DNA of 33,424 bases, taken from Candidatus Portnoybacteria bacterium (GTDB lineage: Bacteria > Patescibacteriota > Minisyncoccia > Portnoybacterales > GWB1-42-6). Made by a program: the position numbers and the translations under genes. Shown here one piece after another: positions 1,440-22,301 of this stretch. A model generated the notes under the pieces. That model did not search any database, was not told where the DNA came from, and was given only the letters and a program-made list of their open reading frames with translations. Positions within the stretch are counted from its first letter, which is position 1; each line of letters begins with the position of its first letter. The stretch is from NCBI GenBank assembly GCA_028717445.1, contig JAQUNU010000001.1:1-33424 (forward strand), read 5' to 3'.

Positions 1440-1461
1440 TATCGAAATCTAATATTTTTTG

Positions 1462-1503
1462 TGTGGATAACTGATGGAAAATCGGTTATTTTTTTGTGGA
1501 TAA
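1462..1503 (-). promoter_or_regulatory. Two perfect DnaA boxes (TTATCCACA, read on the minus strand) overlapping a TATAAT -10 region upstream of the 1555 operon
   Basis: tgtggataa occurs at 1462-1470 and 1495-1503, each preceded by a T-run (tttttgtgtggataa / tttttttgtggataa). TATAAT lies at 1512-1517, 8 nt after the second box, and the first gene starts at 1555. Confidence 0.55.
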
Positions 1504-1554
1504 ATTTAAGGTATAATTAAACTAAGAAAACACTAAATTTTTTGCCTAAATTTA

Positions 1555-2532
1555 ATGAGCCGTAAAAGAGTTAATTTTGCCCGAAATCAAGCCGGGAAAT
1601 TAGGGGTTTTTGTGGCGGTTTTGATATTGTTCGCCGGTCTGTTTTTGGGCGGCTATTTGGTCTTAAAAACAAAAGTCGGCTCCGCTGATGTCGCCTCGCA
1701 GCTGGAATCCGCTCTTGAAAAAACCGGCCTGAAGCAAGATCCCAACGCGGACGATGACGGCGACGGGCTCAAAAATTGGGAAGAAGAAAATTACCGCACA
1801 GATAAAAATAAAGACGACACCGACGGCGACGGCTACCTTGACGGCGAGGAAGTCCTGGCTGGATATGATCCGGCTAAAAAAGCGCCGGGCGATGAACTAG
1901 CCGGCGGCAATGCCAAGACCCCGCGGCCCCTGCCGCAAAACCTGACCAAAGCGCTCACAAATCAGCTGGCGCAGGGAATTTTGGAAGGCAAAATCAAAAC
2001 AATCGATCCGGAAACCGGCCAAACGCTTAAACCGGAAGAGTTTGAAAAAGAAGCCGGGATCGACGAAGCGATTGCCCAAGCGCTCGGCCAGCAATCCGAT
2101 GAATTTGCCATGCCCAAAATAGCCAACTCAGAATTGAGAATTTCAGCTGCCTCAAAAAGGATCGACTTGGCCGCCTATTTTTCAGAAATGTCTAAGATCC
2201 TAAACAAGATAGAAAAAACCGAAAAACCGGAGCTGGAGATCTTTGCCGAGGCCATTGAAAAAACCGATTTTGCCGAATTGGAAAAATATCAGCAAAGCTA
2301 TGTTGAGGCATACCAGGGAATGAAAAATATGACCGTGCCGGCGAACGCGACCGAAATCCACAAAAACATGATGGGATTTCTTTGGATAGTAAATAATATC
2401 TACTCGGCCGTCAAAACCTACGAAGATGACCCATTAAAAACCGCTGTCGCGCTGATCCATTATCAGAATTTAGGCGGCGAAATGAAAAATATTATTGTCA
2501 GAGGCACGGAATTAATAAAAAAGACAAATTGA
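1555..2532 (+). CDS. Membrane-anchored hypothetical protein with thrombospondin-type-3-like Ca-binding repeats
   Basis: 325 aa with an N-terminal TM helix (LGVFVAVLILFAGLFLGGYLVL). It carries tandem DxDxDG motifs (DDDGDGLKNWEE, DTDGDGYLDGEE). It is the first gene of the co-directional cluster, and its stop overlaps the next start (TGATG). Confidence 0.7.
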   Translation: MSRKRVNFARNQAGKLGVFVAVLILFAGLFLGGYLVLKTKVGSADVASQLESALEKTGLKQDPNADDDGDGLKNWEEENYRTDKNKDDTDGDGYLDGEEVLAGYDPAKKAPGDELAGGNAKTPRPLPQNLTKALTNQLAQGILEGKIKTIDPETGQTLKPEEFEKEAGIDEAIAQALGQQSDEFAMPKIANSELRISAASKRIDLAAYFSEMSKILNKIEKTEKPELEIFAEAIEKTDFAELEKYQQSYVEAYQGMKNMTVPANATEIHKNMMGFLWIVNNIYSAVKTYEDDPLKTAVALIHYQNLGGEMKNIIVRGTELIKKTN

Positions 2533-4112
2533 TGAAAAAGTTTGAGCTAAAAATATTTTTTAAAAAAGCTATCAGCGGCTGGCTGATCCTGACCACGCTC
2601 ATTCTTTGTTTTGCCGGAATGGCTTTGCCTGAAAAAAAAGCGGAAGCGGCCCTGGCCACCGAAGCGACGCAAGCCGCCCAAATGCTTCAGGATGGAGTTT
2701 TTTATTTTTCTGACGTTGCCTCAACCGTGGAAGACGAAGTTGTTCAAGGCGGCCAGCTTTCATTTCAGGGAATCATGTCCGCCATTGATGGCTGGTTTAA
2801 ATGGGACACTTTGATGGAAAGAGCCCTAAGATTGGCCTGGTATAAAATGAAGAGGCAAATTCTGCGGGACCTGGCCAATGCCATTCTCAACTGGGCCAAG
2901 GGGGAAGACGGAACTCCTGCTTTTGTCACGGATTGGAAGGGTTATTTATCGAATTTAGGCAAAAATGCCGTCACAAAACTGATCAATGACCAAATCAACA
3001 GCATTGCGATGTGCTTCAACTTTAGTCTCTCCCTAAAAGCCTGGATAAACTGGCAGGATATAAATCTAAATGACCAGCTGGCCTGCCCCATGACGCCGTT
3101 TGTTCTGCAGAACTTTTTATCCGATTTTCAGAGAGGCGGCTGGGACTCCTGGAAGAGCTTCATCAGCCCTTCGGGAAATATGTACGGCTCTTTTATGATC
3201 GTTTCGGACGAAATCCTCAAAGAAGAAGAAAGAGAACGCCAAGCGCAAACGTCCAAACTCATTGCCAATCAGGGATACAAAGGAAATGCGACCACGCCAG
3301 GCATTTTGCAAGCGCACGCGGTTAATGAGGCCGCAATGATGGAATGGACATATCTTATGAATTCCCAAGAGTTTGAAGAATTCGTTTTTGCTTTGGCTGA
3401 TGCCTTTATAATTCGCATTATCAGAGGCGGCGTTAGCGCCCTGCAAACAAACGACTATGACTATTCATCCGGACAGCCCGTAAGCGTCACTCCCCAAACA
3501 AACACCTATATCAACGCTTCCAGCGAAAAAGAAACGATCGATGAAATGAAAAACCGGCTAGCCCTGCTCACGGAAGCTCTGCAAGGGCTCCTGAATGAGC
3601 AAAATCAAAATTTATCCCTCATGCAGTCAATTAAAACAATCCAAAATACTCTGGCTTCGCGCGACTGCGCGCTAGCCTCTCTTCCCATCGATAACGAGCT
3701 CAACGCTTTAACAAACCAAATCAACCAAACACAAACAAGAATCAGCCAGGCCCAGCAAGCGGCTCTCGACAATGACGCTTTAATCAACGCCATCGCTTCG
3801 ATAGAGTCAGCGCAAGATTCGGGGGATCAAGCCGCGCTCGAAAGCGCTTCGACTGTTTATCAAACAACCAGAGAAAAAGCAGTCCAATCTTTCAGCGCTC
3901 TTCTGGGCAGCACTCAACGAGATCTAAATACTACTTTCAGCGAAATGAATTCCTATCTTCTGGCTGTCAACCGCCAGGCCAACACTTATTCCTCCAATCG
4001 TGGCATGGCAAGCATAGGCACAGGCCTGGAGGGCCGCCGCGCCGCGGAAAACCAGCTGCTTCTGGCCTGTCCGGAACCAATCGCCACCACAACGCCGAGT
4101 ATTTTATTTTAG
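2532..4112 (+). CDS. Hypothetical secreted or membrane-anchored protein with a Q/N-rich coiled-coil C-terminal half (T4SS-like cluster)
   Basis: The tracked ORF is 2529..4112 (TTG at 2529, ATG at 2532). There is an N-terminal hydrophobic segment (GWLILTTLILCFAGMALP). The C-terminal region is rich in Q, N, L and A heptad-like sequence. I recognise no family. Confidence 0.65.
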   Translation: MKKFELKIFFKKAISGWLILTTLILCFAGMALPEKKAEAALATEATQAAQMLQDGVFYFSDVASTVEDEVVQGGQLSFQGIMSAIDGWFKWDTLMERALRLAWYKMKRQILRDLANAILNWAKGEDGTPAFVTDWKGYLSNLGKNAVTKLINDQINSIAMCFNFSLSLKAWINWQDINLNDQLACPMTPFVLQNFLSDFQRGGWDSWKSFISPSGNMYGSFMIVSDEILKEEERERQAQTSKLIANQGYKGNATTPGILQAHAVNEAAMMEWTYLMNSQEFEEFVFALADAFIIRIIRGGVSALQTNDYDYSSGQPVSVTPQTNTYINASSEKETIDEMKNRLALLTEALQGLLNEQNQNLSLMQSIKTIQNTLASRDCALASLPIDNELNALTNQINQTQTRISQAQQAALDNDALINAIASIESAQDSGDQAALESASTVYQTTREKAVQSFSALLGSTQRDLNTTFSEMNSYLLAVNRQANTYSSNRGMASIGTGLEGRRAAENQLLLACPEPIATTTPSILF

Positions 4113-4133
4113 CTTCTTGCGCGCAAAAAATTA

Positions 4134-6425
4134 ATGCATAAATTGACACAAAAAAAGATATTGGGAATCGCCTGCATAGCCGCTTTTGCGTTTATGATTT
4201 TTTTGATGCCCGCAGCCGCACAGGCTCAATCTTTTGTTGGAGAATGGATATACGGCAATGTCTTAAAAGCAATCAGCTCTCTGCTTTATTACACTTTTTA
4301 TATTTTTGGCTGGCTGCTCTGGCTGGCCGCTGGTTTGCTTGATTTTGTTCTGACCAATCCGACTTTGCAAAAATTTACCAGCGCTCCCTTTGTCCAAGAC
4401 GGCTGGAAAATCACGCGCGATTTGGCTAATATGTTCTTTTCGTTGATTTTAATCGCCATCGCTTTTGCCACAATCCTGAAAATCGACACCTATGGCGTTA
4501 AAAACAATCTGAAAAACATAATTCTTATCGCTCTTTTAATAAACTTCAGCCTGGTTATCGCCGGGGTAATTATTGATTTTGCCCAAGTTTTGACAAATTA
4601 TTTTGTGACCGCCGCCAAAGGCGACAACGCCAGCATAACCGCGATGCTGGCCAACGGCCTGAATATAACCTCGGGATTTGATCCTTCAAAAGCGCCCCGA
4701 GATCTTGAGTTGAAAGATACGTTCCAAGGATTCCTGACTATAGGCCTTGGCCTTTTTGGCCAGACGATATTTGTCTTGGTGGCGGCTTTCACGATGTTTG
4801 CCGCGGTAATTTTTTTGATTGTCCGGTTTGTAGCCATCTGGTTCTTGCTTATGTTATCGCCCATTGTCTGGCTTTTTTATATTCTCCCCAATACCCGCAA
4901 ATATTGGAACCAGTGGTGGGAGGCATTTATGAAATGGGTTTTTTTCGCGCCGGCTTATACTTTTTTTCTTTATTTAAGCTTAATGGCCGTGAGCAAAGGG
5001 GCGCTTGTTTCGCAGGTTGGATTTGTCATGGATCAATCAGGCCAAACATTCATCGGCAAAAGTTTTGAAGTTATTATCAGCTATATAATTTTGATTGGAT
5101 TTTTGATCGCCTCGCTCATCGTGGCCCAAAAAGCCGGCGTGGCCGGAAGCCACGGCGTTATAGCCGTAGGCCGAGGGATGTCAAGAGCGGTCGGAGGCGC
5201 AGTAAGCAACTGGGCGGCCAGGGGAGCGGAAAAAGATATAACCGGAAAAGGATTTATTAGAGGCGCTGGAGCGGGGCTTCGTCGCGGCATTTCTTATTTA
5301 TCACCCGAAGCCTGGAAAACGGCTTGGCGACAACGGCAAGAACAGACCAAAAGAGAGAGCATCCCAATTGCCGCCGGCCGGCGGCAGGATTTGCTCAACC
5401 GAGTGCTTTCGTTAAGCTGGTTTAAGGGCCAGCCCGGCGAAAAAACCGACTACCGCGAAAGAGCGGCCAGATCCAGGCGCGCCGAAGAACGCAAAAATAT
5501 TTACACCAATAACGCCGAGGAATTAATCAGGGGGTTTTTGGACGCAAAAAAATCCGGCAACGCCAACAAAATGAACGCTTATGTCCAGGCCTTATCCGAG
5601 CAGAATGATCAAAACGAATTGTTCAAGGCTCTGAACAAAACCGAAGGCAAAAATTATGCCATGACTGCCCGCGGCGTTACTGACTTTGTCGAGGAGCAAT
5701 TAAAACCGGCCATGGGCGAACAGCAGGCTTATCGCTTCGGCCATGACATGATCAGGATGATGGAAAGCAATGGCCAGTGGATCGGCCGGCCTTTCGCGGC
5801 CAATGCCTCAGGCAAATACGAGCTTTCAGGCGTAGAGGGAGTTGCCGGCAAAAAAGCCGCCTGGGGCGACCTGAACGAGGAGCAAAAGAAAGCGGTCATG
5901 GAGTTGGCGGCCCAAAACGCCCACGTGGAATGGACCAAACAGGATCCGCAAAAACAGTCTATTAACACAGGGCGGTTTAGCTACATCGACGAAGAATATG
6001 AATTAGGGGCAAATGGGGAAATTGATACAATCGACGGTGGCCTTACCACGGCTGGCCTTCAGAAACTCTCAATGATTCAACCCAGCCAGGCAAATCGATT
6101 AAACACTCACAGCAAAGCCATGTTGATGACCTTCCATGCCGATGAATTCAAGAAGACCAACGCCGGCGTTTTTAACAAAATTATGGAAGACATGACCGCA
6201 GCCGTTAGAGGCATGGACAAACCGGGGATTGAAAACTTCGTCGCCAATTTTACCCAGCCCATTGCGCATATAACCAGCGTCATTCGGGACAAAAACGGCA
6301 AGGAGGTCCGCCGGGTCAGCGCCGATGAAGCAAGGGCTAATTTCGTAAAAATGATCGAAGACGCCCAGGCTGAAAAAGGAGACAACGCCAAGCCAAAAGG
6401 AGGGCCCGCTGGATTTAATCCCTAA
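4134..6425 (+). CDS. Polytopic membrane protein, VirB6/TrbL-like, with a long hydrophilic C-terminal domain
   Basis: 763 aa with a signal-like N-terminus (AAFAFMIFLMPAAAQAQS). At least 6 hydrophobic helices fill the first ~360 aa, followed by a ~400-aa charged soluble tail. The position and topology match VirB6/TrbL components of Gram-positive T4SS loci. Confidence 0.6.
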   Translation: MHKLTQKKILGIACIAAFAFMIFLMPAAAQAQSFVGEWIYGNVLKAISSLLYYTFYIFGWLLWLAAGLLDFVLTNPTLQKFTSAPFVQDGWKITRDLANMFFSLILIAIAFATILKIDTYGVKNNLKNIILIALLINFSLVIAGVIIDFAQVLTNYFVTAAKGDNASITAMLANGLNITSGFDPSKAPRDLELKDTFQGFLTIGLGLFGQTIFVLVAAFTMFAAVIFLIVRFVAIWFLLMLSPIVWLFYILPNTRKYWNQWWEAFMKWVFFAPAYTFFLYLSLMAVSKGALVSQVGFVMDQSGQTFIGKSFEVIISYIILIGFLIASLIVAQKAGVAGSHGVIAVGRGMSRAVGGAVSNWAARGAEKDITGKGFIRGAGAGLRRGISYLSPEAWKTAWRQRQEQTKRESIPIAAGRRQDLLNRVLSLSWFKGQPGEKTDYRERAARSRRAEERKNIYTNNAEELIRGFLDAKKSGNANKMNAYVQALSEQNDQNELFKALNKTEGKNYAMTARGVTDFVEEQLKPAMGEQQAYRFGHDMIRMMESNGQWIGRPFAANASGKYELSGVEGVAGKKAAWGDLNEEQKKAVMELAAQNAHVEWTKQDPQKQSINTGRFSYIDEEYELGANGEIDTIDGGLTTAGLQKLSMIQPSQANRLNTHSKAMLMTFHADEFKKTNAGVFNKIMEDMTAAVRGMDKPGIENFVANFTQPIAHITSVIRDKNGKEVRRVSADEARANFVKMIEDAQAEKGDNAKPKGGPAGFNP

Positions 6426-6445
6426 ACTTAAGAATAAACACCTAG

Positions 6446-7630
6446 ATGCCCTTAACCCGCGAACAACTTGATTTTTTCCAATACCAGGCCAATGCCAATA
6501 TTGATTCTCTTCTCCGGAAGGAATCGCTGTTTTTGGCCATGGAAATGGAACCGTTAATCTTAACCCAATCAGGGGGCAGCTACGACAATCTGTCTGAAGC
6601 AAAAAAATTGCTTTTCCAATTAAAATGGGTCGGCTGCGGCATAATCAGAGATGATAATGATTTTTATGACCTTGTTAAATATCATCTACTAGAAGGATTC
6701 GAGTTAAACAGACGCTTTGAATTTGACGCTTTCAGCGATCTTGTTTTTAGCAAATTAGCTAATCTTTTCGGATCAGGATTGCAGGAAATGACGCAAAATA
6801 TACTTTCCGCAACAAGAGAAAATAATCAAACCATCGGCGCGAATCCGATCATGGTCAAAAATGAAACCCGGGCCGTCCGGCCGACTGTCCGCCATTGGCT
6901 GATAGATTTTTTAAGAAGCTCTTCTGCGGAAAATCCAGGCGAAGTCCAGGAAACCGACTATCTTTTCAACAATCCGAATGCCAAAGCTCTTTCGGAAGAA
7001 GATAAAAAAACACTCGGCCAGGTTTTAGCTTTTTACGATACAATGCGTTTACTCTCAAAGGAGGTGGCTATGTCCGAAACTATGCCTCCAAGCGCCGCCG
7101 AAGAACGCCCGCTGATCGCTCCCTTGCGCCAGCAAACCGGAGATGAATTTCATTTTGAAGAACGGCCTCGGCCGTCCATGTCCGCTTTCTACGAAACCCA
7201 ACAACCATCGCCGCGCCCGATTCCGCCGCAACAATCTTTTTCCAACCCAGCCAGGACTTTTTCTCCGCCCCCGCCGCCAGCTCCTCGGCCGCAACCGGCC
7301 TGGCCGCCATCACCCGAAAAAAATTCCTACCAACCCAGGCCCGCCAGCCCGCCTCCTTCTTTGCCGATCCAGCCGCCATCAACGCCATCAAAGCCAATTC
7401 TTTCCAGAATCACTCCGCCTCAAACCCAACCAGTGACCGGACCTGCTTCTTTCAGGCCAGCTCCAATTCCGCCCCCAATTCCGGTCCGGCCAAATACCCC
7501 ACAACAAAAAAGCACCTACCGCGAGACGATCACCCCAGAAGATTTAGACGGTCCGCAGACGCCCCGAAAAACAGGGCCAAAACTAAATGGAAATGTAGTC
7601 AACCTTAAAGATTTTAACCGATCCAATTAA
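6446..7630 (+). CDS. Hypothetical protein with an extreme proline-rich C-terminal half
   Basis: 394 aa. Residues ~210-370 are P/S/Q-rich low complexity (PPPPPAPRPQPAWPPSPEKNSYQPRPASPPPSLPIQPPSTPSKP). No TM segment was seen. Confidence 0.6.
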   Translation: MPLTREQLDFFQYQANANIDSLLRKESLFLAMEMEPLILTQSGGSYDNLSEAKKLLFQLKWVGCGIIRDDNDFYDLVKYHLLEGFELNRRFEFDAFSDLVFSKLANLFGSGLQEMTQNILSATRENNQTIGANPIMVKNETRAVRPTVRHWLIDFLRSSSAENPGEVQETDYLFNNPNAKALSEEDKKTLGQVLAFYDTMRLLSKEVAMSETMPPSAAEERPLIAPLRQQTGDEFHFEERPRPSMSAFYETQQPSPRPIPPQQSFSNPARTFSPPPPPAPRPQPAWPPSPEKNSYQPRPASPPPSLPIQPPSTPSKPILSRITPPQTQPVTGPASFRPAPIPPPIPVRPNTPQQKSTYRETITPEDLDGPQTPRKTGPKLNGNVVNLKDFNRSN

Positions 7631-7646
7631 CCCTTATTGAAGAATT

Positions 7647-7931
7647 ATGCAATTTCACGTTCCTCAATTCCTCGATATTGAAGACAAAATTATCGGCCCT
7701 TTAACCCTTAAACAATTCGCCTACCTAGCCGGCGGGGGAGTCTTGCTTTTTATTCTGTCTAATTATGTAAAATTATGGCTTTTTTTGATAATCGCCGCGC
7801 CTTTGGCCGCGTTTTGCATGGCTCTGGCCTTTATCCGGGTCAACGGCCGACCATTTATTTCAATCTTTGGCGCTTTTGTAAATTACATGGTCAAGCCGAA
7901 GCTTTTTGTCTGGAAAAGAAAAGAAAAATGA
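7647..7931 (+). CDS. PrgI-family small membrane protein (VirB3-like T4SS component)
   Basis: 94 aa. The N-terminus VPQFLDIEDKIIGPLTLKQFAYLAGGG followed by two TM helices is the signature of the PrgI family (Pfam PF12666, recalled from memory). It lies directly upstream of the VirB4-like genes, as in Gram-positive T4SS loci. Confidence 0.7.
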   Translation: MQFHVPQFLDIEDKIIGPLTLKQFAYLAGGGVLLFILSNYVKLWLFLIIAAPLAAFCMALAFIRVNGRPFISIFGAFVNYMVKPKLFVWKRKEK

Positions 7932-7944
7932 GCTGTAAAAACAT

Positions 7945-8625
7945 ATGCCCGAACCACAATCAAACATTTTAAACAAAATACCAATCGCCGACATTCAGAA
8001 TGGAATCGTCTTCTTAAAAGACGGTTCGCTTCGGGGAGTTTTAATGGTTTCTTCCGTAAACTTTGCCCTGAAATCAACCGACGAACAGGACGCGCTGACC
8101 TTTCGCTATCAGCAATTTTTGAATTCCCTCGATTTTCCCATCCAAATCCTGATCATGACGCGGCGGTTTGATATCTCCGACTACATCGCCTTGATTGACC
8201 AAAAGAAAAAAGAACAGGAGAACGAACTGCTGCGGATCCAAACCGGTGAATATATTGATTTCATCAAAGGATTGACTCAAGTCGTCAATATTATGAGCAC
8301 TTTTTTTTATATCATCATCCCTTACGCCCAAAGCGAACCGGCCAAAGCGGCCATGGGCTTTGCGGACAAAATAACCAGAAAGATTTTCAGCCAGGAAACG
8401 AGTCAAAATCAAGAAAAACAATCCCTAGAACAAATGCAGACCGGGCTCTGGCAGCGCGTAAATTATATAATCTCCGGCTTGACCATGTGCAATTTGAAAA
8501 GCGCCATTTTAGACGACTTGGAATTAAAAGAGCTTTTTTACAAGCTTTACAATCCGCAATCAGAGCAAAGAGCCGAAACAGAATCTCCGTCAAGCAATCC
8601 AGGATTTAATTTCACCCAAAAATAA
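7945..8625 (+). CDS. Hypothetical protein; resembles a VirB4/TrsE N-terminal domain without an ATPase domain
   Basis: 226 aa. IADIQNGIVFLKDGSLRGVLMVSSVNFALKSTDEQDALTFRYQQFLNSLDFPIQILI resembles the start of VirB4-type proteins. There is no Walker motif. The stop lies 3 nt before the VirB4-like ATPase start. Confidence 0.5.
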   Translation: MPEPQSNILNKIPIADIQNGIVFLKDGSLRGVLMVSSVNFALKSTDEQDALTFRYQQFLNSLDFPIQILIMTRRFDISDYIALIDQKKKEQENELLRIQTGEYIDFIKGLTQVVNIMSTFFYIIIPYAQSEPAKAAMGFADKITRKIFSQETSQNQEKQSLEQMQTGLWQRVNYIISGLTMCNLKSAILDDLELKELFYKLYNPQSEQRAETESPSSNPGFNFTQK

Positions 8626-8628
8626 ATT

Positions 8629-10440
8629 ATGGATTTACCATTTTTTTCAAAACAAAAAAACAAAACAAAACAAACGCCCGAATCGAAGATTGCGGAAATA
8701 TTGGCGCCCTCAGCCATGAAAATAAACGCCAATTTCATCCAGCTCGGCGGCAAATTATGCCGGGTTCTTTTTGTTTTTACCTATCCAAGGAATCTCTCGA
8801 CTAATTGGTTCTCGCCGGTTCTCACCATGGATAAGGAGTTAAATATTTCGATGTTCATCAAGCCGGCCGAAACGCATCTCATCCTAAAACAATTAAGAAA
8901 AAAAGTCGCCCAGGTGCAATCACAGATTTCAGCCCAGCAGGAAAAAGGGAAAATCAGAGATCCCATCCTGCAAACCGCGCTTCAGGATATGGAAACGATG
9001 CGCGACACGCTCCAGCAGGGGACAGAAAGATTTTTTAATTTTGGTCTCTATATCGCCGCTTTCGGCAATTCGCCCCAGGAGCTTGACCAGATTGAGAATG
9101 AACTCCGGGCCGCGATGGAATCAAAATTAGTCTATGTCAAGCCCGCCACTTTCCAACAAGAAGCCGGCTTCACTTCAATTCTGCCGCTGGCCAAAGACGC
9201 TCTTTCGATTTCGACGCCGATGAACACGGCCCCGGTTTCCAGCACATTCCCTTTTGTCTCCTCGGATCTTTCTCAAAACAAAGGCATTCTTTATGGCATT
9301 AACCGACACAACAACAGCTTGATACTTTTTGACCGTTTTTCTTTGGAAAATGCCAATATGGTTATTTTCGCCAAGTCCGGCGCCGGAAAAAGCTATGCGG
9401 TCAAGCTTGAAATATTAAGATCGCTCATGATGGGATCGGACGTTATTGTGATCGATCCGGAAAACGAATATCAGTATCTTGCCGAAACAGTGGGCGGCTC
9501 ATATATAAAAATTTCGCTGACTTCGCCGCATCATATTAATCCTTTTGACCTGCCGATTCCCAGAAAAGATGAACGGCCAGGCGATATTTTACGCTCAAAC
9601 ATCATCAACCTGGTTGGCCTTATCCGAATAATGCTGGGCGGCTTGACCCCGCAGGAAGACGCTGTTTTGGATAAAGCCCTGACAGAAACTTATGCTTCGC
9701 GGGATATTACTCCTGAATCTGATTTTGCGAACATTACGCCGCCGCTCTTAAGCGATCTTAAAACCATCCTTGGCAACATGGAGGGCGGCCAATCCATGGC
9801 GCAGCGGCTCGAAAAATATACCAGCGGCTCATACGCCGGCTTCTTTAATCGGCCCACGAACGTGGCGGTCAAAAACCGATTGGTTGCTTTTTCCATCCGC
9901 GATATGGAAGAAGATCTCCGGCCGATGGCCATGTATGTTGTGCTCCATTATATCTGGAACCTGATCCGTTCGGAGATGAAAAAAAGAATTCTCGTCGTGG
10001 ACGAGGCCTGGGTCATGATGCGTTACGAAGATGCCGGTTCTTTTATGTTCGGCATTGCCAAAAGATGCCGTAAATATTTTCTTGGCCTAACCACGATCAC
10101 CCAAGATGTCGCCGACTTCATGGCCTCAACCTACGGCAAGCCAATCGTCACCAACTCCTCCATCCAGCTCCTGATGAAACAATCGCCAGCCACTATCGAA
10201 ATTATCCAAAACACCTTCAATCTGACCGACCAAGAAAAGTATCTTCTGCTGGAATGCAATGTCGGAGAAGGAATATTTTTTGCCGGCTTAAAGCACGTGG
10301 CCATCAAAGTTATCGCCTCCTACACCGAAGATCAGATTATCACCTCCGACCCGGCCCAGCTGCTTGAAATAGAAAAGGCTAAAGAAGAATTAACAGCGGA
10401 AGAAAACCAACCAACCGATAACAACTTGGACATTATTTAA
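8629..10440 (+). CDS. virB4: VirB4/TrsE/TraC-like type IV secretion ATPase
   Basis: 603 aa with Walker A FAKSGAGKSYAVK and Walker B RILVVDEAW. There is a downstream TTITQ sensor-like motif, and the N-terminal domain carries the YPRNLSTNWF motif typical of VirB4 homologs. Confidence 0.85.
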   Translation: MDLPFFSKQKNKTKQTPESKIAEILAPSAMKINANFIQLGGKLCRVLFVFTYPRNLSTNWFSPVLTMDKELNISMFIKPAETHLILKQLRKKVAQVQSQISAQQEKGKIRDPILQTALQDMETMRDTLQQGTERFFNFGLYIAAFGNSPQELDQIENELRAAMESKLVYVKPATFQQEAGFTSILPLAKDALSISTPMNTAPVSSTFPFVSSDLSQNKGILYGINRHNNSLILFDRFSLENANMVIFAKSGAGKSYAVKLEILRSLMMGSDVIVIDPENEYQYLAETVGGSYIKISLTSPHHINPFDLPIPRKDERPGDILRSNIINLVGLIRIMLGGLTPQEDAVLDKALTETYASRDITPESDFANITPPLLSDLKTILGNMEGGQSMAQRLEKYTSGSYAGFFNRPTNVAVKNRLVAFSIRDMEEDLRPMAMYVVLHYIWNLIRSEMKKRILVVDEAWVMMRYEDAGSFMFGIAKRCRKYFLGLTTITQDVADFMASTYGKPIVTNSSIQLLMKQSPATIEIIQNTFNLTDQEKYLLLECNVGEGIFFAGLKHVAIKVIASYTEDQIITSDPAQLLEIEKAKEELTAEENQPTDNNLDII

Positions 10441-10441
10441 A

Positions 10442-10843
10442 ATGGCCAATGAAATAAATAAAATAAGAAGGGATGATAGCAAGGAAAAAAAAGAAACAAA
10501 CATCAATAGCCCGAAATCCGACGTCACGAGTATCGAATTTGCCCTAATCGCCTTAGTCGCCGTAGGCAAAGACGGCTTGGATGCCGGAGCGACACTCTCG
10601 ATCATCGGAGTGCCTTTAACGCCCATATTAAATATCGGCGCGATAATGATTTTGTGGCTTTGGTGCGTAATGCGGCTAAAAGAATTCCCAACCAAAAGAT
10701 TCGCGGGTTCCGCCATGTTGGAATTCTTGCCTTTTTTGAACGCACTGCCGTTCTGGACGGCTTTCCTGATTCTTATTTATATCCAACAAAACTTTCCCAA
10801 TCTTTCAAAGTATATTCCGGGTTCGAAAGATGAAAAAAAATAA
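10442..10843 (+). CDS. Small integral membrane protein (hypothetical, T4SS-like cluster)
   Basis: 133 aa with a charged N-terminus followed by about 3 hydrophobic helices. It starts 1 nt after the VirB4-like stop. Confidence 0.55.
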   Translation: MANEINKIRRDDSKEKKETNINSPKSDVTSIEFALIALVAVGKDGLDAGATLSIIGVPLTPILNIGAIMILWLWCVMRLKEFPTKRFAGSAMLEFLPFLNALPFWTAFLILIYIQQNFPNLSKYIPGSKDEKK

Positions 10844-10852
10844 ATTGAAAAT

Positions 10853-11704
10853 TTGAAAATCACTAAATTTTTTTTCGCAAATATTTTGCCCGCTTTTTAT
10901 TTTCTCTCCTGCTCGACCGCATTTGCCCTGGAATATCCCTTCGGCAATCTGTCGGCCAATCCCACTCCCTGCGAATATATTAAAACGGCATACATTTGGG
11001 GTCTGGGGATTGTCGGCACTCTGGCGGTGGCCGTGATCGCTTTTGGCGGTTTTCTTTACATGGTGGGGAAAGTGGAGCAGGGCAAAGACTACATCACTTC
11101 GGCGTTTTTGGGAATACTGCTGCTTTTTGGCGCTTACCTGATTCTCTACACTATTAATCCGGAATTGGCACAGTTGAAGTGCGAGATAAAGAATATGCAA
11201 CCCTTGGGAACTCCGCCCACCGGCGCTTCGGTGCCAATAACACCTGGCTCAACCACCGGCACTTCGCTTGGAGAACAGGCGGCTCGGGGCGCTTTGGCCA
11301 GCGGCGTAGGCGTAAAAGACGCTTGTCCGCCTGGGCAGGCGACCGGATGCGTTAGAATGGAGGGGATGAAGGATACAACCGTTAACGAAATAAATGATTT
11401 AGCCGGCAAAGTTGGGCCTGAAAATATCTACATTTCAGGCGGCACCGAAGGGTGCGGCGCCACTGGCTCAACAATTCATTCAACCGGCTCAGTCAGCCAT
11501 TGTTCCGGCGATAAGTATGACATGAGACAGAATAACACCGTTAATAATTATATCGAAAACGCTTTTGTAAAAATGCCCAATCGAAAATACGATGGCGCCG
11601 AAATGTGGATGGACCCAAAAACCGGAACCACTTATGCCAAAGAAATGGGCGTTGTAGGAACGGTTAACGGACCACACTGGGACGTGGCTGTCCGGAAAAT
11701 TTAA
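10853..11704 (+). CDS. VirB2/TrbC-like 'T4SS pilin' N-terminal module fused to a putative LAS/M15-type zinc peptidase (cell-wall hydrolase) domain
   Basis: 283 aa with a TTG start. It has a signal-like N-terminus and then two TM helices (IWGLGIVGTLAVAVIAFGGFLYM and FLGILLLFGAYLILYTINP), as in the Patescibacteria T4SS pilin family. A Pro/Thr linker follows. The C-terminal domain carries SHCSGDKYD (H-x3-G-x3-D) and GPHWDVAVR (H-x-D) motifs. Confidence 0.6.
   Translation: MKITKFFFANILPAFYFLSCSTAFALEYPFGNLSANPTPCEYIKTAYIWGLGIVGTLAVAVIAFGGFLYMVGKVEQGKDYITSAFLGILLLFGAYLILYTINPELAQLKCEIKNMQPLGTPPTGASVPITPGSTTGTSLGEQAARGALASGVGVKDACPPGQATGCVRMEGMKDTTVNEINDLAGKVGPENIYISGGTEGCGATGSTIHSTGSVSHCSGDKYDMRQNNTVNNYIENAFVKMPNRKYDGAEMWMDPKTGTTYAKEMGVVGTVNGPHWDVAVRKI
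10923..11200 (+). repeat. Direct repeat copy A (278 bp, identical to 11797-12074)
   Basis: A base-by-base read of both copies shows identity. Both the sense and the antisense ORF translations are also identical across the repeat. Confidence 0.95.
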
Positions 11705-11735
11705 ATTATCAAATTCGGAAAAATCTAATAATATT

Positions 11736-12194
11736 GTGAAAAAATATTTTAAAATAATTTTTTCTTTGATCGGCCTAACCTTTCCGATTTTCTCCCTTGC
11801 CCTGGAATATCCCTTCGGCAATCTGTCGGCCAATCCCACTCCCTGCGAATATATTAAAACGGCATACATTTGGGGTCTGGGGATTGTCGGCACTCTGGCG
11901 GTGGCCGTGATCGCTTTTGGCGGTTTTCTTTACATGGTGGGGAAAGTGGAGCAGGGCAAAGACTACATCACTTCGGCGTTTTTGGGAATACTGCTGCTTT
12001 TTGGCGCTTACCTGATTCTCTACACTATTAATCCGGAATTGGCACAGTTGAAGTGCGAGATAAAGAATATGCAAAAATTTAATGAAGCGCCGCAACCGAC
12101 AAAAACGACGGACGAACCGCTCCCGCAATCGATGACCGAAAAAATAGATGCCGGCGCAACCAACCAAGACATAAAAGACGACATGTTAAAATAA
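11736..12194 (+). CDS. VirB2/TrbC-like 'T4SS pilin' paralog with a short hydrophilic tail
   Basis: 152 aa with a GTG start. Residues ALEYPFGNL...AQLKCEIKNMQ are 100% identical to the preceding gene. The signal peptide and C-terminal tail are unrelated to it. Confidence 0.7.
   Translation: MKKYFKIIFSLIGLTFPIFSLALEYPFGNLSANPTPCEYIKTAYIWGLGIVGTLAVAVIAFGGFLYMVGKVEQGKDYITSAFLGILLLFGAYLILYTINPELAQLKCEIKNMQKFNEAPQPTKTTDEPLPQSMTEKIDAGATNQDIKDDMLK
11797..12074 (+). repeat. Direct repeat copy B (278 bp, identical to 10923-11200)
   Basis: Same as copy A; the offset between copies is 874 bp. Confidence 0.95.
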
Positions 12195-12213
12195 ACCGCC
12201 TATTATTTTTTAA

Positions 12214-13311
12214 ATGAAGAAAAAAATCTTTGTCGCTTTAATAATATTTTTCGTCTTAAGCAGCGGCTCGCTGCTGATTTATAATTTCTTTTTCAAAGAG
12301 AAAACGGAGACAAAAATCGAGGAAAATAAAGAAAAAGCCGAGATAAAAGCGATCAGCGAAAAACAAGCGTTTGCCCCTTTTTTGGAGAACGGCCAAGTCA
12401 AATATTATCTGGCCCAAAACGGCCACGTCGTTCAGTCAAAATTTGACGGCACCCAAAAAAAGGAAATTTCCACGACAGATCTGAAAGATTTGAAAAAAGT
12501 GGCCTGGTCTCCTGATGGCAAAAAAGTCATCGGTTTTTACGGCGAAACAACCGGCAACGGGGTAAAAAAATCCGTTTTTGATTACATAACAAAAAAATCA
12601 TACCCGCTCGACGCCAACATCCGCTCGATCGCCTGGTCGCCGGACAGCAAAAAAATTATTTATCAATACTCCGATAATCAGGGGAATAACAACATCAGCG
12701 CGGCCAACCAGGATGGCTCTGGTTGGCATAATATTCTGCAGACTCGGCTGGGAAATTTGGTCGTCGAATGTCCGACGCCCGGCAAAATTTCCCTTCGGAG
12801 CGTGCCAAACAGCCAAACCAAGGGCTTTCTTTTTGTCCTTGAAGAAAAAACAGAAAATATAGTCGCGGTTCTGGATGATTTAAACGGCTTCTCGGCCAAA
12901 TGGTCGCCGGACGGACAAAAAATCCTTTATCAGACAACAAACGCCAAAGGCCAAGATTTGAAGCTCTTCGTCGCCGACAGCCAAGGCCAAAACAGCCTCC
13001 AGCTGCCCGCGATCACGCTGGTTGAAAAATGCGCTTGGTCCGCGAATAGCCAGAAAATCTTTTGCGCCGCGCCCCAAAATATCTCCGATAACGCAACTTG
13101 GCCTGAGGATTGGCTAGATGGACTCGTTTCCGTTAAAGACGATCTCTATGAGCTCTCTGCCGACGGCAAAGAAAAAACAAAAATCGTCGCTTCTGACGAA
13201 GCGCGATCTTTTGATGTAAATGAAATTATTGCTTCTCCCCAAGGCGACTACGTTCTATTTACCAGCCGCCGCGATGGCCTGCTTTGGAGCGTCGCCATTC
13301 CCAATAATTAA
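12214..13311 (+). CDS. Membrane-anchored PD40/TolB-like beta-propeller repeat protein
   Basis: 365 aa with an N-terminal TM helix. PD40 signatures recur: AWSPDGKKVIGFY, AWSPDSKKIIYQY, KWSPDGQKILYQT, AWSANSQKIFC, ASPQGDYVLFTS. Confidence 0.75.
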   Translation: MKKKIFVALIIFFVLSSGSLLIYNFFFKEKTETKIEENKEKAEIKAISEKQAFAPFLENGQVKYYLAQNGHVVQSKFDGTQKKEISTTDLKDLKKVAWSPDGKKVIGFYGETTGNGVKKSVFDYITKKSYPLDANIRSIAWSPDSKKIIYQYSDNQGNNNISAANQDGSGWHNILQTRLGNLVVECPTPGKISLRSVPNSQTKGFLFVLEEKTENIVAVLDDLNGFSAKWSPDGQKILYQTTNAKGQDLKLFVADSQGQNSLQLPAITLVEKCAWSANSQKIFCAAPQNISDNATWPEDWLDGLVSVKDDLYELSADGKEKTKIVASDEARSFDVNEIIASPQGDYVLFTSRRDGLLWSVAIPNN

Positions 13312-19244: not shown

Positions 19245-19447
19245 TTTTTTGAATACAAAAAAGAGATTTGTAAAAATTCGCTCCTCCACAATATTTTCAC
19301 AACTTATCAACAAAACAAGTTATTTAACGGGCTTAAATTTACTTCCCATTAACTTTTTATTTTTGATATAATTCTATAAACGGCGAAAAGAGGCCTTGAA
19401 CAAAAGCGTGGCCTAAAATTTAAAAGCACGCACCGCAAAAAAATCAT

Positions 19448-20812
19448 ATGACCAATCAGGAACTTTGGCAGGCGGCCTTAGGAGAAATCGAACTAAATAT
19501 TTCCAAGACCAACTTCATAACCTGGTTCAAAAGCACCGAGATCGTCAAAATAAAGGATGGCGCGGTGACCGTTGGCGTGCCCAATGGCTTTGCTAAAGAA
19601 TGGCTGGAAAATAAGTATAACAAGCTGATCTTAAAGGCCTTAAGGAATATCTCGCCAGACACAAAGGAAATCGAATTCATTATCGGCGCCTTTTCTTCTC
19701 CGGATTCAGGCGACAGGCCTCTCAAGCTTAAAAAGAAAGAAACTGTTCTCGTGGGCCAGCCCTTCCAGGAGTTTGAGATCAACAAGGAAACCCACCTTAA
19801 TCCCAAATACACCTTCGATAATTTCATTGTCGGCTCATTCAATGAACTTGCGCGGGCCGCGGCCCAGGGCGTGGTCAAGAATTTGGGCGCTCTTTATAAT
19901 CCCTTCTTTATCTATGGGGGAGTGGGTCTTGGGAAAACCCACTTAATCCAGGCCATCGGCAACGAAACCGTCCGCCTTTATAAGAATGAAAAGAAGATCT
20001 GCTACATCAGTTCGGAAAAATTTACGAGCGAGCTAGTGGAATCTCTTTATAAAGGCCAGGTTGAAGAATTTAAAAACAATTATCGCCAAATCGATCTTTT
20101 AATTATCGACGACGTGCAGTTTTTAGCGGGCAAAGAAAAAACCCAGGAAGAATTCTTCCACACGTTCAACGCCCTTTATCAAAGCAACAAACAAATAGTC
20201 ATCAGCTCCGACCGGCCTCCAAAGGCCATCGCAACACTCGAAGAGCGGCTAAAATCCCGCTTTGAAGGCGGCATGATCGCCGATATCTCTTTCCCGGATT
20301 TTGAATCGCGCCTCGCGATTTTAAAAGCCAAGGTTATGGAAAAGAACTTTCAACTCTCGGAAGAAGTTCTTAATTATCTGGCTAATAACATCCAAAAAAA
20401 CATTAGAGAGCTGGAGGGGGCGCTGAACCGCTTGGTTATCTCCGAAAAGCTTAGCGGTTCAAGCGTTGACATTGACCAGGTCGCCAAGATTCTGACCGGC
20501 ATCAACTCCAGCCCCTCTAAAAAGATCAGCTTTAAGACCATCCTACAGGCTGTGGCCGAGTTCTACGACATCAACACCAGCCAGCTAATCAACCGCTGCC
20601 GGAAAAAAGAATTGGTCTACCCCAGACAGATCGCCATGTTTCTCATGCGCGAGGAATTGAAAAGCTCTTTTCCTTTCATCGGTGAAAAACTTGGCGGCCG
20701 GGATCACACCACGGTTATGTATGCCTGCGAAAAGCTGATCCGCGAAGTGGAAACAAACGAATCCCTCCAACAAGAGATTAATCTCATCAAAGAGCATATG
20801 TATAACAGATAA
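19448..20812 (+). CDS. dnaA: Chromosomal replication initiator protein DnaA
   Basis: 454 aa with Walker A GGVGLGKTHL, Walker B LLIIDDVQF and sensor/box VII motifs. The C-terminal DNA-binding domain reads GGRDHTTVMYACEKL. Confidence 0.97.
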   Translation: MTNQELWQAALGEIELNISKTNFITWFKSTEIVKIKDGAVTVGVPNGFAKEWLENKYNKLILKALRNISPDTKEIEFIIGAFSSPDSGDRPLKLKKKETVLVGQPFQEFEINKETHLNPKYTFDNFIVGSFNELARAAAQGVVKNLGALYNPFFIYGGVGLGKTHLIQAIGNETVRLYKNEKKICYISSEKFTSELVESLYKGQVEEFKNNYRQIDLLIIDDVQFLAGKEKTQEEFFHTFNALYQSNKQIVISSDRPPKAIATLEERLKSRFEGGMIADISFPDFESRLAILKAKVMEKNFQLSEEVLNYLANNIQKNIRELEGALNRLVISEKLSGSSVDIDQVAKILTGINSSPSKKISFKTILQAVAEFYDINTSQLINRCRKKELVYPRQIAMFLMREELKSSFPFIGEKLGGRDHTTVMYACEKLIREVETNESLQQEINLIKEHMYNR

Positions 20813-21052
20813 GCAAAAACGAAGGCCGAAGGATCGGGATAACCCAGTGGATAAAACATTAAAAACCACGGGAACAAAACAGGATAAAAAAAGATACAAA
20901 CAAAATCCTAATATTCTCCACCGATTTATTCACAGACCCGTTCATTAATTTTTCCGCTTCAGTAAAAGATATTTTTACTTTTCCACAGAATATAATTTCT
21001 TAATAATAATTCTTTTTTTTCTTAATAGACATATAAAGAATTATTAATCAGT
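20813..21052. other. Candidate oriC segment (dnaA-dnaN intergenic region) with three 8/9 DnaA boxes and an AT-rich tract
   Basis: TTATCCACT lies on the minus strand at 20846-20854. TTATTCACA is at 20926-20934 and TTTTCCACA at 20979-20987. An AT-rich stretch runs 20990-21050 (ataatttcttaataataattctttttttcttaatag...). Confidence 0.5.
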
Positions 21053-22166: not shown

Positions 22167-22301
22167 TGTTACTTTTCTGCTGTCAGAAAAGTAACATAAA
22201 GACTGCTTTGCCGGGCATAAAATTTTAAGAAAGATCGGATTCACTCCGCTCATCTCGATTTTCTGATAAAATTTTTGCCAGGCAAGATTGAAGAAAAGGC
22301 C
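22167..22301 (+). repeat. Intergenic repeat element, copy 1 (inverted partner at 27503-27637)
   Basis: About 135 nt and about 94% identical to the reverse complement of 27503-27637. It starts with a 15-bp hairpin (22165-22198) 9 nt after the dnaN stop. It contains an extended -10 (tgataaaat, 22264-22272) and the palindrome ttgccaggcaa (22275-22285). Confidence 0.9.

What the first reader, a model, noticed from the sequence alone, without database searches (positions are those of the whole stretch)
1440..1554. The only perfect DnaA boxes in the window sit on the promoter of the T4SS-like operon, not at the origin
tgtggataa (TTATCCACA on the other strand) occurs twice, at 1462-1470 and 1495-1503. 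The copies are 33 bp apart (about three helical turns), and each sits in the same context (T-run + GTGGATAA). The second ends 8 nt upstream of a TATAAT at 1512-1517, so it lies in the spacer of the likely promoter for the gene starting at 1555.

The rpmH-dnaA and dnaA-dnaN intergenic regions contain only 7/9-8/9 matches. This suggests DnaA-dependent control of the secretion-like cluster, coupling it to the replication or cell cycle, or a datA-like titration site. Either would be unusual for a T4SS locus.
Basis: partly seen in the sequence, partly recalled or inferred. Interest (0 to 1): 0.6.

Follow-up and report, generated by a model that had tools for sequence, protein, structure and literature searches.

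The report
DnaA-box operator on CPR secretion-system promoter
Two perfect binding sites for the replication initiator DnaA sit on the promoter of a type-IV-secretion-like operon in an ultrasmall (Parcubacteria/CPR) bacterium. The same site is kept in front of the same operon in dozens of related genomes, as one node of a genome-wide set of DnaA-box promoters, so these regulator-poor cells probably use DnaA as a transcription factor.

Summary
TTATCCACA occurs on the minus strand at 1462-1470 and 1495-1503. The copies are 33 bp apart, and the second ends 8 nt before TATAAT (1512-1517). The spacers around dnaA hold only 8/9 boxes.

The boxes are not special to this locus. The 709-kb genome has 27 perfect boxes and 24 are intergenic. 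It is the most over-represented intergenic 9-mer (24 observed, 0.64 expected), and the flanks are unrelated, so it is not a repeat family.

The site is strongly conserved. In 28 of 29 order-level relatives the orthologous first gene has a box with at most 1 mismatch. In 21 of them it lies 38-41 bp before an invariant TATAAT. Across wider Parcubacteria, 28 of 80 loci have a perfect box.

The distal box (1462-1470) is the conserved one. The proximal box is shared with three relatives, where it lies beside the place of the -35.

DnaA is the only protein in the genome with a DnaA domain IV, and it keeps the base-reading residues.

Best reading: a DnaA operator within a conserved DnaA-box regulon that also includes pilM, pilin genes and the ComFC-side spacer. 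The direction of control is unknown. No binding or transcript data could be obtained. I found no published description.

The parts
1462..1470 (-). Distal perfect DnaA box (TTATCCACA; reads TGTGGATAA toward the operon). It ends 41 nt before the -10. With a start site assumed 7 nt after TATAAT, it spans about -62 to -54.
   Evidence: This is the conserved box. It is invariant in alignment A1, present with at most 1 mismatch in 28 of 29 order-level orthologous promoters, and lies 38-41 nt before TATAAT in 21 of them.
1471..1494 (+). Inter-box spacer CTGAtgGAAAATCGGTTATTTTTT. Only 2 positions vary among the four genomes that carry two boxes.
   Evidence: Alignment A1 rows L001, L002, L003 and L027. 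The downstream proteins are only 27-45% identical.
1495..1503 (-). Proximal perfect DnaA box, 33 bp from the distal one. It ends 8 nt before the -10 (about -29 to -21) and begins 1 bp after the slot where relatives have their -35 hexamer.
   Evidence: It is shared only with G010, G003 and G004. The promoter scan finds no -35 here.
1512..1517 (+). -10 hexamer TATAAT of the operon promoter.
   Evidence: Three of its positions are invariant and most others nearly invariant across the 29 orthologous upstream regions. The row without a box (L018) reads TACAGC here, and two rows read TAAAAT. In about half of the relatives an ATG follows 4-11 nt later.
1555..2532 (+). First gene of the T4SS-like operon: a membrane-anchored protein with bacterial TSP3 repeats.
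   Evidence: Pfam PF18884. Orthologs occur in 38 of 41 relatives and are followed by the gene-2 ortholog in 28 of 29 loci.
2529..13311 (+). Rest of the co-directional T4SS-like cluster, including a PrgI/VirB3-like protein (7647-7931) and a VirB4-like ATPase (8629-10440).
19448..20812 (+). dnaA, with domains I, III and IV. It is the only protein in the genome with a DnaA C-terminal DNA-binding domain.
   Evidence: Pfam; PF08299 search of the genome. Alignment to E. coli, B. subtilis and M. tuberculosis domain IV shows the R399, P423, D433, H434 and T435 equivalents kept.
20813..21052 (.). Probable oriC (dnaA-dnaN spacer). It has three 8/9 boxes (20846-20854 on the minus strand, 20926-20934 and 20979-20987 on the plus strand), followed by an AT-rich stretch.
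   Evidence: The cumulative GC-skew minimum is at about 21-22 kb. In most family-level relatives 8/9 boxes recur near the same positions: the -62 site in 11, and all three sites in 6.
19304..19312 (+). 8/9 box (TTATCAACA) upstream of the dnaA promoter; a candidate autoregulatory site.

Best explanation
The two 9-mers are operator sites for the replication initiator DnaA acting as a transcription factor on the promoter of the T4SS-like operon.

**Conserved layout (shown).** One consensus box is followed by about 14 nt, a weak -35 (TTGnnn), 17 nt, TATAAT, and then a very short or absent leader. This puts the box centre near -55 to -58, one helical turn upstream of the commonest box position in this genome, which is about -44.

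**This subclade (shown).** In the window and three relatives the -35 has been displaced. A second consensus box now lies at about -29 to -21, three helical turns from the first and on the same face of the helix.

**Regulon (shown).** The promoter is one member of a conserved DnaA-box regulon of about 20 promoters per genome. Other members include the pilM operon, two type IV pilin genes, the spacer beside a ComFC-like gene, cell-wall and surface-protein genes and some housekeeping genes. At oriC itself only 8/9 boxes are used.

**Inferred.** DnaA occupancy, which tracks DnaA level and nucleotide state and therefore the replication cycle, sets transcription of the operon.

- I consider activation from the distal site somewhat more likely than repression. 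The reasons are its upstream, face-of-helix-constrained position and the weak or absent -35.
- In the two-box variant, the proximal box would add repression at high DnaA, much as at E. coli nrdAB.
- The sign of regulation is not established.
For: **Site and statistics**
- Exact coordinates confirmed.
- 27 perfect boxes in 709 kb, 24 of them intergenic although only 10.7% of the genome is intergenic.
- TTATCCACA is the top over-represented intergenic 9-mer: 24 observed against 0.64 expected under a 3rd-order Markov model, P about 2e-29. It ranks above the Shine-Dalgarno words.
- Flanks of the 27 sites share no similarity and no extended motif, so the information lies in exactly the 9 bp that DnaA reads.
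- The other top-enriched words checked mostly occur inside hairpin or tandem repeats.

**Conservation**
- About 23 of 30 order-level loci have a perfect box just upstream of the ortholog, and 28 of 29 have one with at most 1 mismatch.
- Orientation is TGTGGATAA toward the gene in 26 of 28.
- The gap to the nearly invariant TATAAT is 38-41 nt in 21 and 28-29 nt in 4, which is one helical turn closer.
- Protein identity in these loci is only 27-45%.
- In 80 wider Parcubacteria loci, 28 have a perfect box and 48 a box with at most 1 mismatch within 260 bp upstream. Chance would give about 0.1 perfect and about 4 one-mismatch loci.
- Over-representation holds across the order: median 20 copies against 2 for a control word in 41 genomes.
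- The regulon is shared with a complete genome of another genus. The T4SS gene 1, pilM, TrmD, ComFC/unknown spacer, SpoIID-amidase, a small secreted protein and an Fe-S protein all have a box nearby in both.
- pilM orthologs carry a perfect box upstream in 11 of 30 loci, 10 of them in the same orientation.

**Reader protein**
- A single DnaA domain IV protein in the genome.
- The dnaA-dnaN spacer of most family members keeps 8/9 variants of the same word near the same positions. This shows the lineage's DnaA reads this word family.
Against: - There is no binding, expression or start-site data.
- In E. coli most in-vivo DnaA sites need a second box 2-3 bp away (PMC11317965). Here partner boxes at that spacing are not enriched, so single-box binding would have to suffice.
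- Box orientation flips between clades, and the gap to the -10 varies from 23 to 44 nt in distant clades and at other promoters. That is looser than a strict activator geometry.
- A crude test for envelope or secreted products among boxed genes is not significant: 8 of 20 against 29% genome-wide, P = 0.2.
- Another, unknown regulator that reads the same 9-mer cannot be excluded.
Confidence: 0.68

Rival explanations
1. A dedicated transcription factor other than DnaA recognises TGTGGATAA. On this reading the identity with the DnaA box is coincidental, or the factor competes with DnaA.
For: The regulon contains many host-interaction and envelope genes (T4SS-like operon, pilM, pilins, surface proteins). 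No published DnaA regulon has this content: the 2021 review PMC8203912 mentions no secretion, pili or competence. The sites are single boxes, unlike the double boxes E. coli DnaA needs in vivo.
Against: All nine positions equal the universal DnaA consensus, and no flanking positions are conserved. The cell contains a canonical DnaA with intact base-reading residues, which would bind these sites anyway. No second domain IV protein exists. Most oriC spacers in the family use 8/9 variants of the same word.
Confidence: 0.15
2. The boxes mainly titrate or inactivate DnaA (datA-like, B. subtilis DnaA-box-cluster-like, or origin-proximal titration). Their promoter location would be incidental.
For: The operon lies about 20 kb from dnaN, and therefore from oriC, on the same contig in at least 11 relatives. 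oriC has only weaker boxes, so the 27 consensus boxes must compete for DnaA. An origin-proximal high density of boxes has been proposed as a titration device in E. coli (PMC12371093, abstract seen).
Against: There are only one or two boxes at the site, whereas datA and the B. subtilis clusters hold many. The distance to the -10 is fixed (38-41 nt in 21 genomes) and a preferred orientation is kept within the order. The boxes are spread over many contigs, nearly always at promoters. A pure sink would not need that geometry. Titration can coexist with regulation.
Confidence: 0.1
3. The boxes arose by chance or as a repeat artefact. Either two chance 9-mers fell in an AT-rich spacer, or they are arms of a REP-like mobile repeat that happens to contain the word.
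For: One of 100 shuffles of the window also gave 2 matches. Earlier notes of this scan report REP-like repeats carrying DnaA boxes in other CPR genomes.
Against: Conservation at the orthologous promoter across families. Intergenic enrichment with P about 1e-29. No flank similarity among the 27 sites in this genome apart from overlapping neighbours.
Confidence: 0.02

Closest known systems
E. coli nrdAB promoter (DnaA boxes just upstream of the -35; activation at low and repression at high DnaA-ATP)
   Same: Consensus DnaA boxes lie next to the core promoter of a non-replication operon. A dual activating and repressing reading is possible when two boxes are present. Gene expression is tied to initiation potential (PMC8203912).
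   Different: The E. coli boxes form a double box 3 bp apart (PMC11317965). Here the boxes are single, or 33 bp apart. The target is a secretion apparatus, not nucleotide synthesis. The conservation is order- to class-wide in CPR.
DnaA as a global or cell-cycle transcription factor (the Caulobacter crescentus DnaA regulon; B. subtilis DnaA-bound intergenic regions, PMC2533591)
   Same: DnaA boxes in many intergenic regions define a regulon beyond replication genes.
   Different: Consensus-box density is about 38 per Mb here, against about 7 per Mb in E. coli (32 boxes). The consensus word is the top intergenic 9-mer. The stable B. subtilis sites are clusters of boxes, whereas these are single consensus boxes at a set distance from the -10.
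E. coli datA / B. subtilis DnaA-box clusters (titration and inactivation loci)
   Same: Consensus boxes lie outside oriC, in an origin-proximal region.
   Different: There is no cluster: one or two boxes against five or more. No evidence for an IHF-type architecture was sought or found. The position is locked to a promoter.
Patescibacteria T4SS of Southlakia epibionticum (SEML1_0006-0019; Wang et al. 2023, PMC10633639)
   Same: Both are origin-proximal, pilin-bearing, Gram-positive-like T4SS clusters without relaxase or coupling protein. The Southlakia system is essential for epibiotic growth.
   Different: That paper describes no regulation of the cluster and does not mention DnaA (0 occurrences). 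Whether Saccharibacteria have the box was not tested here.

Membership tests
Canonical DnaA box (R-type, TTATCCACA) | 9/9 match to the consensus TTATCCACA | tested here: met
   perfect matches at 1462-1470 and 1495-1503.
Canonical DnaA box (R-type, TTATCCACA) | The organism's DnaA has a domain IV with the base-contacting residues (E. coli R399, P423, D433, H434, T435) | tested here: met
   the alignment to 1J1V and 8BTG shows R, P and RDHTTV conserved; it is the only domain IV protein in the genome.
Canonical DnaA box (R-type, TTATCCACA) | Physical binding by DnaA | not testable with these tools
   Needs EMSA, footprinting, DAP-seq or ChIP.
DnaA-regulated promoter (operator) | Box(es) adjacent to or overlapping the core promoter elements of the regulated gene | tested here: met
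   The gaps to the conserved TATAAT are 41 and 8 nt. The architecture is conserved in 28 of 29 relatives.
DnaA-regulated promoter (operator) | Conservation of the site at orthologous promoters beyond what neutral descent would give | tested here: met
   at 27-45% protein identity.
DnaA-regulated promoter (operator) | Double box with 2-3 bp spacing, as required at almost all E. coli in-vivo sites | tested here: not met
   partner matches at 2-3 bp spacing are barely above background. Exceptions are G000 C17:11748/11760 (two perfect boxes 3 bp apart) and C5:16247 (a perfect box and an 8/9 box 2 bp apart, inside a coding region).
DnaA-regulated promoter (operator) | Transcription responds to DnaA level or nucleotide state | not testable with these tools
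datA / DnaA-box-cluster titration locus | A cluster of many boxes (five or more) within a few hundred bp | tested here: not met
   only two boxes in the 115-bp spacer, and no others with at most 1 mismatch within kilobases.
oriC | Box cluster beside an AT-rich unwinding element, next to dnaA/dnaN, at the GC-skew switch | tested here: not met
   The finding's site lies about 18 kb from dnaA and has no unwinding element. The dnaA-dnaN spacer does fit these features.
REP-like repeat carrying a DnaA box | Shared flanking sequence or hairpin among copies | tested here: not met
   no flank similarity among the 27 sites except overlapping neighbours.

The most novel reading that the evidence does not exclude
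In Parcubacteria, and patchily elsewhere in Patescibacteria, DnaA may be the main transcription factor that couples replication-initiation potential to the host-interaction and DNA-uptake apparatus: the essential T4SS-like machine, type IV pili and ComFC. It would act through single consensus boxes phased on one face of the helix upstream of the promoter.

These cells cannot make nucleotides and must import DNA or host material. This circuit would therefore be their functional counterpart of DnaA control of ribonucleotide reductase in model bacteria. The two-box variant in this window would be a derived switch in which a DnaA box lies beside the slot of the lost -35.
Probability: 0.25. Interest if true: 0.85.

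Novelty: new variant of a known kind. Interest (0 to 1): 0.66.

Why it matters
CPR/Patescibacteria have very few recognisable regulators, and almost nothing is known about how they control the T4SS-like and pilus machines that are essential for their epibiotic life (PMC10633639).

A conserved, easily recognised operator, probably read by the one DNA-binding protein every bacterium has, gives three things:
- a concrete regulon, testable with purified protein and synthetic DNA, for organisms that cannot be cultured;
- a possible link between the replication cycle and host attachment or secretion;
- a case in which the highest-affinity DnaA sites lie at promoters while the origin uses weaker ones. 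This bears on titration models of initiation control.

Tried and rejected
G000 lacks any detectable rpoA, which is an assembly gap. All 40 relatives have rpoA with the CTD in one roughly 320-aa frame. The idea does not apply to this order.
- **E. coli-type double boxes.** Not enriched.
- **REP-like repeat origin.** Rejected, because flanks are unrelated.
- **Alternative-sigma -35 element.** Rejected. Orientation flips between clades, the gap to the -10 varies from 23 to 44 nt, and a separate TTGnnn -35 is present in the single-box promoters.
- **Envelope enrichment of boxed genes.** A crude N-terminal hydrophobicity test was not significant. I therefore do not claim an envelope-specific regulon for this genome.
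- **Literature.** 'DnaA box' plus Patescibacteria gave 0 papers. DnaA plus candidate phyla radiation plus promoter gave nothing relevant. Wang et al. 2023 does not mention DnaA.
- **Consensus promoter scan.** It finds no sigma-70 pair in 1200-1800, which is consistent with the missing -35.

Full report
**1. Observation**

The window reads ...tttttTGTGTGGATAActgatggaaaatcggttatttttttGTGGATAAatttaaggTATAATtaaac....

- TTATCCACA occurs exactly twice in the 33.4-kb window. Both copies are on the minus strand, at 1462-1470 and 1495-1503. Shuffles gave a mean of 0.15 matches.
- The copies are 33 bp apart. The second ends 8 nt before TATAAT (1512-1517), and the ORF starts at 1555.
- With one mismatch allowed, the rpmH-dnaA spacer has one 8/9 box and the dnaA-dnaN spacer has three. 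Neither has a perfect box.
- The cumulative GC-skew minimum lies at about 21-22 kb. The dnaA-dnaN spacer ends in an AT-rich stretch, so oriC is most likely there.

**2. Context**

- Upstream are a UvrD fragment and rsmA/ksgA (615-1439).
- Downstream is a run of co-directional genes. It includes a TSP3-repeat membrane protein (1555-2532), a PrgI/VirB3-like protein and a VirB4-like ATPase.
- Next come minus-strand Wzy/flippase genes, then jag-yidC-yidD-rnpA-rpmH, and then dnaA, dnaN and a DciA-like gene.
- The window is contig C1 of a 709-kb, 73-contig genome with 43.5% G+C.
- Relatives found by name are Candidatus Portnoybacteria and other Parcubacteria.
- The consensus promoter scan finds no -35/-10 pair in 1200-1800. 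The hexamer 17 nt before TATAAT is TTTTTT.

**3. How rare are perfect boxes in this genome?**

- The genome has 27 perfect boxes, against about 7 expected from base composition.
- With a crude ORF map that is 89% coding, 24 of the 27 are intergenic.
- Against a 3rd-order Markov model of the intergenic DNA, TTATCCACA is the most over-represented intergenic 9-mer. It is seen 24 times against 0.64 expected (P about 2e-29), ahead of the Shine-Dalgarno words.
- The next-ranked words that I checked mostly occur inside longer hairpin or tandem repeats.
- The 27 boxes share no flanking similarity and no extended motif. This is the signature of a protein-binding site, not of a repeat family.
- For scale, E. 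coli has 32 consensus boxes in 4.6 Mb (PMC11317965). That is about 7 per Mb, against about 38 per Mb here.

**4. Genes behind boxed promoters in this genome**

- the T4SS-like operon;
- a pilM operon;
- two type IV pilin genes;
- the spacer next to a ComFC-like gene;
- an fn3 secreted protein;
- a surface protein of more than 900 aa, with three boxes, two of them 3 bp apart;
- a SpoIID-type amidase;
- a ribosome hibernation factor, TsaE/DHH, TrmD, a GH1 glycosidase, an acylphosphatase, MetK and a Kelch-like secreted protein.

A crude N-terminal hydrophobicity test does not show significant enrichment for exported proteins: 8 of 20 against 29% genome-wide, P = 0.2.

About 14 of the 24 intergenic boxes have an exact TATAAT within 60 nt. 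The gaps cluster at 27-31 nt, with others at 8, 23, 34, 40-41 and 44 nt.

**5. Conservation at the orthologous operon**

*Order-level relatives*

- The first gene has orthologs in 38 of 41 relatives of the same family or order, at 27-45% identity.
- The gene-2 ortholog follows in 28 of 29 loci.
- A perfect box lies just upstream in about 23 of 30 loci.
- In the alignments (A1, A2), TGTGGATAA is invariant in A1 (built on perfect-box loci). TATAAT is nearly invariant: three positions are invariant and most others at least 90% identical.
- The shared layout is: box, about 14 nt, TTGnnn, 17 nt, TATAAT.
- In about half of the genomes the ATG follows only 4-11 nt later, which is a leaderless-type layout.
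- Counting boxes with at most 1 mismatch, 28 of 29 upstream regions have the site.
- The gap to the -10 is 38-41 nt in 21 regions. It is 28-29 nt in four, where the box reads TGTGGAAAA, which is one helical turn closer.
- The box is reversed in two regions and absent in one.

*Which box is conserved*

- The conserved box corresponds to the distal one of the window (1462-1470).
- The proximal box occurs only in the window, G010, G003 and G004.
- In those four genomes the inter-box spacer is almost identical, and the position of the -35 is a T-run.

*Wider Parcubacteria*

- A wider scan with the protein alignment returned 80 loci.
- Within 260 bp upstream, 28 have a perfect box and 48 have a box with at most 1 mismatch. 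Most lie at -40 to -90 from the start codon.
- In the distant clades the orientation is the opposite one, and the gap to TATAAT is 23-42 nt.

**6. Conservation of the wider phenomenon**

- All 41 genomes of the order sampled have 6-42 copies (median 20). A control word has a median of 2.
- Across 120 other Patescibacteria genomes the excess is patchy. The summed ratio is 2.5, and 37 of 120 show a strong excess.
- A complete genome of another genus (G008) has 23 boxes.
- tblastn with the boxed genes of this genome shows that several orthologous genes have a box nearby in both genomes. These are the T4SS gene 1, pilM, TrmD, the ComFC/unknown spacer, the SpoIID-amidase, a small secreted protein and an Fe-S protein.
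- pilM orthologs carry a perfect box upstream in 11 of 30 loci, 10 of them in the same orientation.

**7. Who reads the box?**

- The genome encodes one protein with a DnaA C-terminal domain, and that protein is DnaA.
- Aligned to the solved domain IV structures, it keeps the residues that contact the box in E. coli: the R399 equivalent, P423 and the RDHTTV motif.
- In most family-level relatives the dnaA-dnaN spacer keeps 8/9 variants of the same word near the same positions: about -62 in 11 relatives, and about -200, -115 and -62 together in 6. Only 5 of 27 spacers have a perfect box.
- So the lineage's DnaA evidently reads this word family. It uses weaker versions at the origin and the consensus at promoters.
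- All 40 relatives have an RNA polymerase alpha subunit with its C-terminal domain. G000 simply lacks rpoA in the assembly. An upstream activator contact through alpha is therefore possible in principle.

**8. Mechanism**

*Shown:* a consensus DnaA box under strong purifying selection at a fixed distance and helical face upstream of the operon's -10, as part of a conserved set of boxed promoters.

*Inferred:*
- DnaA binds the box and modulates RNA polymerase.
- The distal site has an upstream, phased position (centre about -55 to -58, if the start is 7 nt after TATAAT). The -35 is weak or missing. Both favour activation or recruitment.
- The proximal box at about -29 to -21 in this subclade could replace the -35 contact, or it could block the polymerase at high DnaA, as at E. 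coli nrdAB (PMC8203912).
- The sign of control is unknown.

*Differences from E. coli:* sites are single rather than double boxes, the consensus-box density is much higher, and the targets include secretion and pilus genes. The 2021 review of DnaA's transcriptional roles does not mention such targets.

**9. Rivals**

- **Pure titration, datA-like.** The origin-proximal synteny fits: the operon lies about 20 kb from dnaN in at least 11 relatives. The promoter-locked geometry and the lack of a box cluster do not fit. Titration may well coexist with regulation.
- **Another regulator reading the same 9-mer.** This cannot be excluded without binding data, but it is unparsimonious.
- **Chance or a repeat artefact.** Excluded.

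**10. Novelty**

- DnaA as a transcription factor is long known.
- I found no paper on a DnaA-box regulon in CPR bacteria, or on DnaA boxes at T4SS or pilus promoters.
- Earlier notes of this scan describe the same promoter element in other Patescibacteria genomes. I treated them as leads. My results agree with them on position (41 nt before the -10). They disagree with one note's alpha-CTD-loss idea for this order.

**Verdict:** This is a new variant of a known kind.

Noticed in passing
L011, L013, L014, L023, L026, L028 and other loci (upstream of the gene-1 orthologs): In about half of the relatives the ATG of the first T4SS-like gene lies only 4-11 nt after the invariant TATAAT and has no Shine-Dalgarno sequence. 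The operon mRNA is therefore probably leaderless there. In the window the ATG is 37 nt after the -10, and the aligned position reads AAG instead of ATG.
   Followed up: partly
Genome contig C17:11660-12112 (outside the window): Three perfect DnaA boxes lie between ftsZ and a surface-protein gene of more than 918 aa. Two of them (11748 and 11760) are 3 bp apart, which is the E. coli-type double box. This is the strongest candidate DnaA site in the genome.
   Followed up: no
Genome contig C13:15074-15868 (outside the window): A 795-bp gene-free spacer lies between a ComFC-like gene and an unknown gene. It holds two convergent perfect boxes 36 bp apart plus TTATGCACA. The same spacer carries a box in G008 (L194). 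It could hold an RNA gene or a second DnaA-dependent element.
   Followed up: partly
Genome contig C20:650-690 (outside the window): One perfect box forms the loop of a G+C hairpin (gcccccTTATCCACAgggggc) in a spacer between two minus-strand genes.
   Followed up: no
Whole genome G000: No rpoA (neither PF01000 nor PF03118) is detectable in this 94%-complete assembly, while all 40 relatives have it. This is an assembly gap, not biology.
   Followed up: yes
Genome contigs C4:2155-2215, C12:13976-14060 and C12:16806-16940; C8:20144-20210: Other strongly enriched intergenic words belong to repeats. One is an ATATACGAAT/ATATACAAAT-rich inverted-repeat family. Another is a 17-bp tandem repeat (AAAGAGCTTCAAAATAA) at a contig end.
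   Followed up: no
window 22171-22200, and contigs C3:22638, C15:2086, C15:5935, C15:10622: The palindrome GTTACTTTTCTG-nnnn-CAGAAAAGTAAC recurs in spacers.
   Followed up: no
L027 (G004), between the two-box promoter and the gene-1 ortholog: The two-box promoter module lies about 400 bp upstream of the ortholog. An intervening small ORF looks, by eye, like a GIY-YIG nuclease domain, which would be an insertion behind the promoter.
   Followed up: no
Loci of family f6 in alignment A2 (for example L008, L011, L022, L023, L026, L028): Directly upstream of the box there is a divergent consensus promoter (TTGACT-17-TATAAT on the other strand) for a divergent gene. One box may therefore serve two promoters there.
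   Followed up: no
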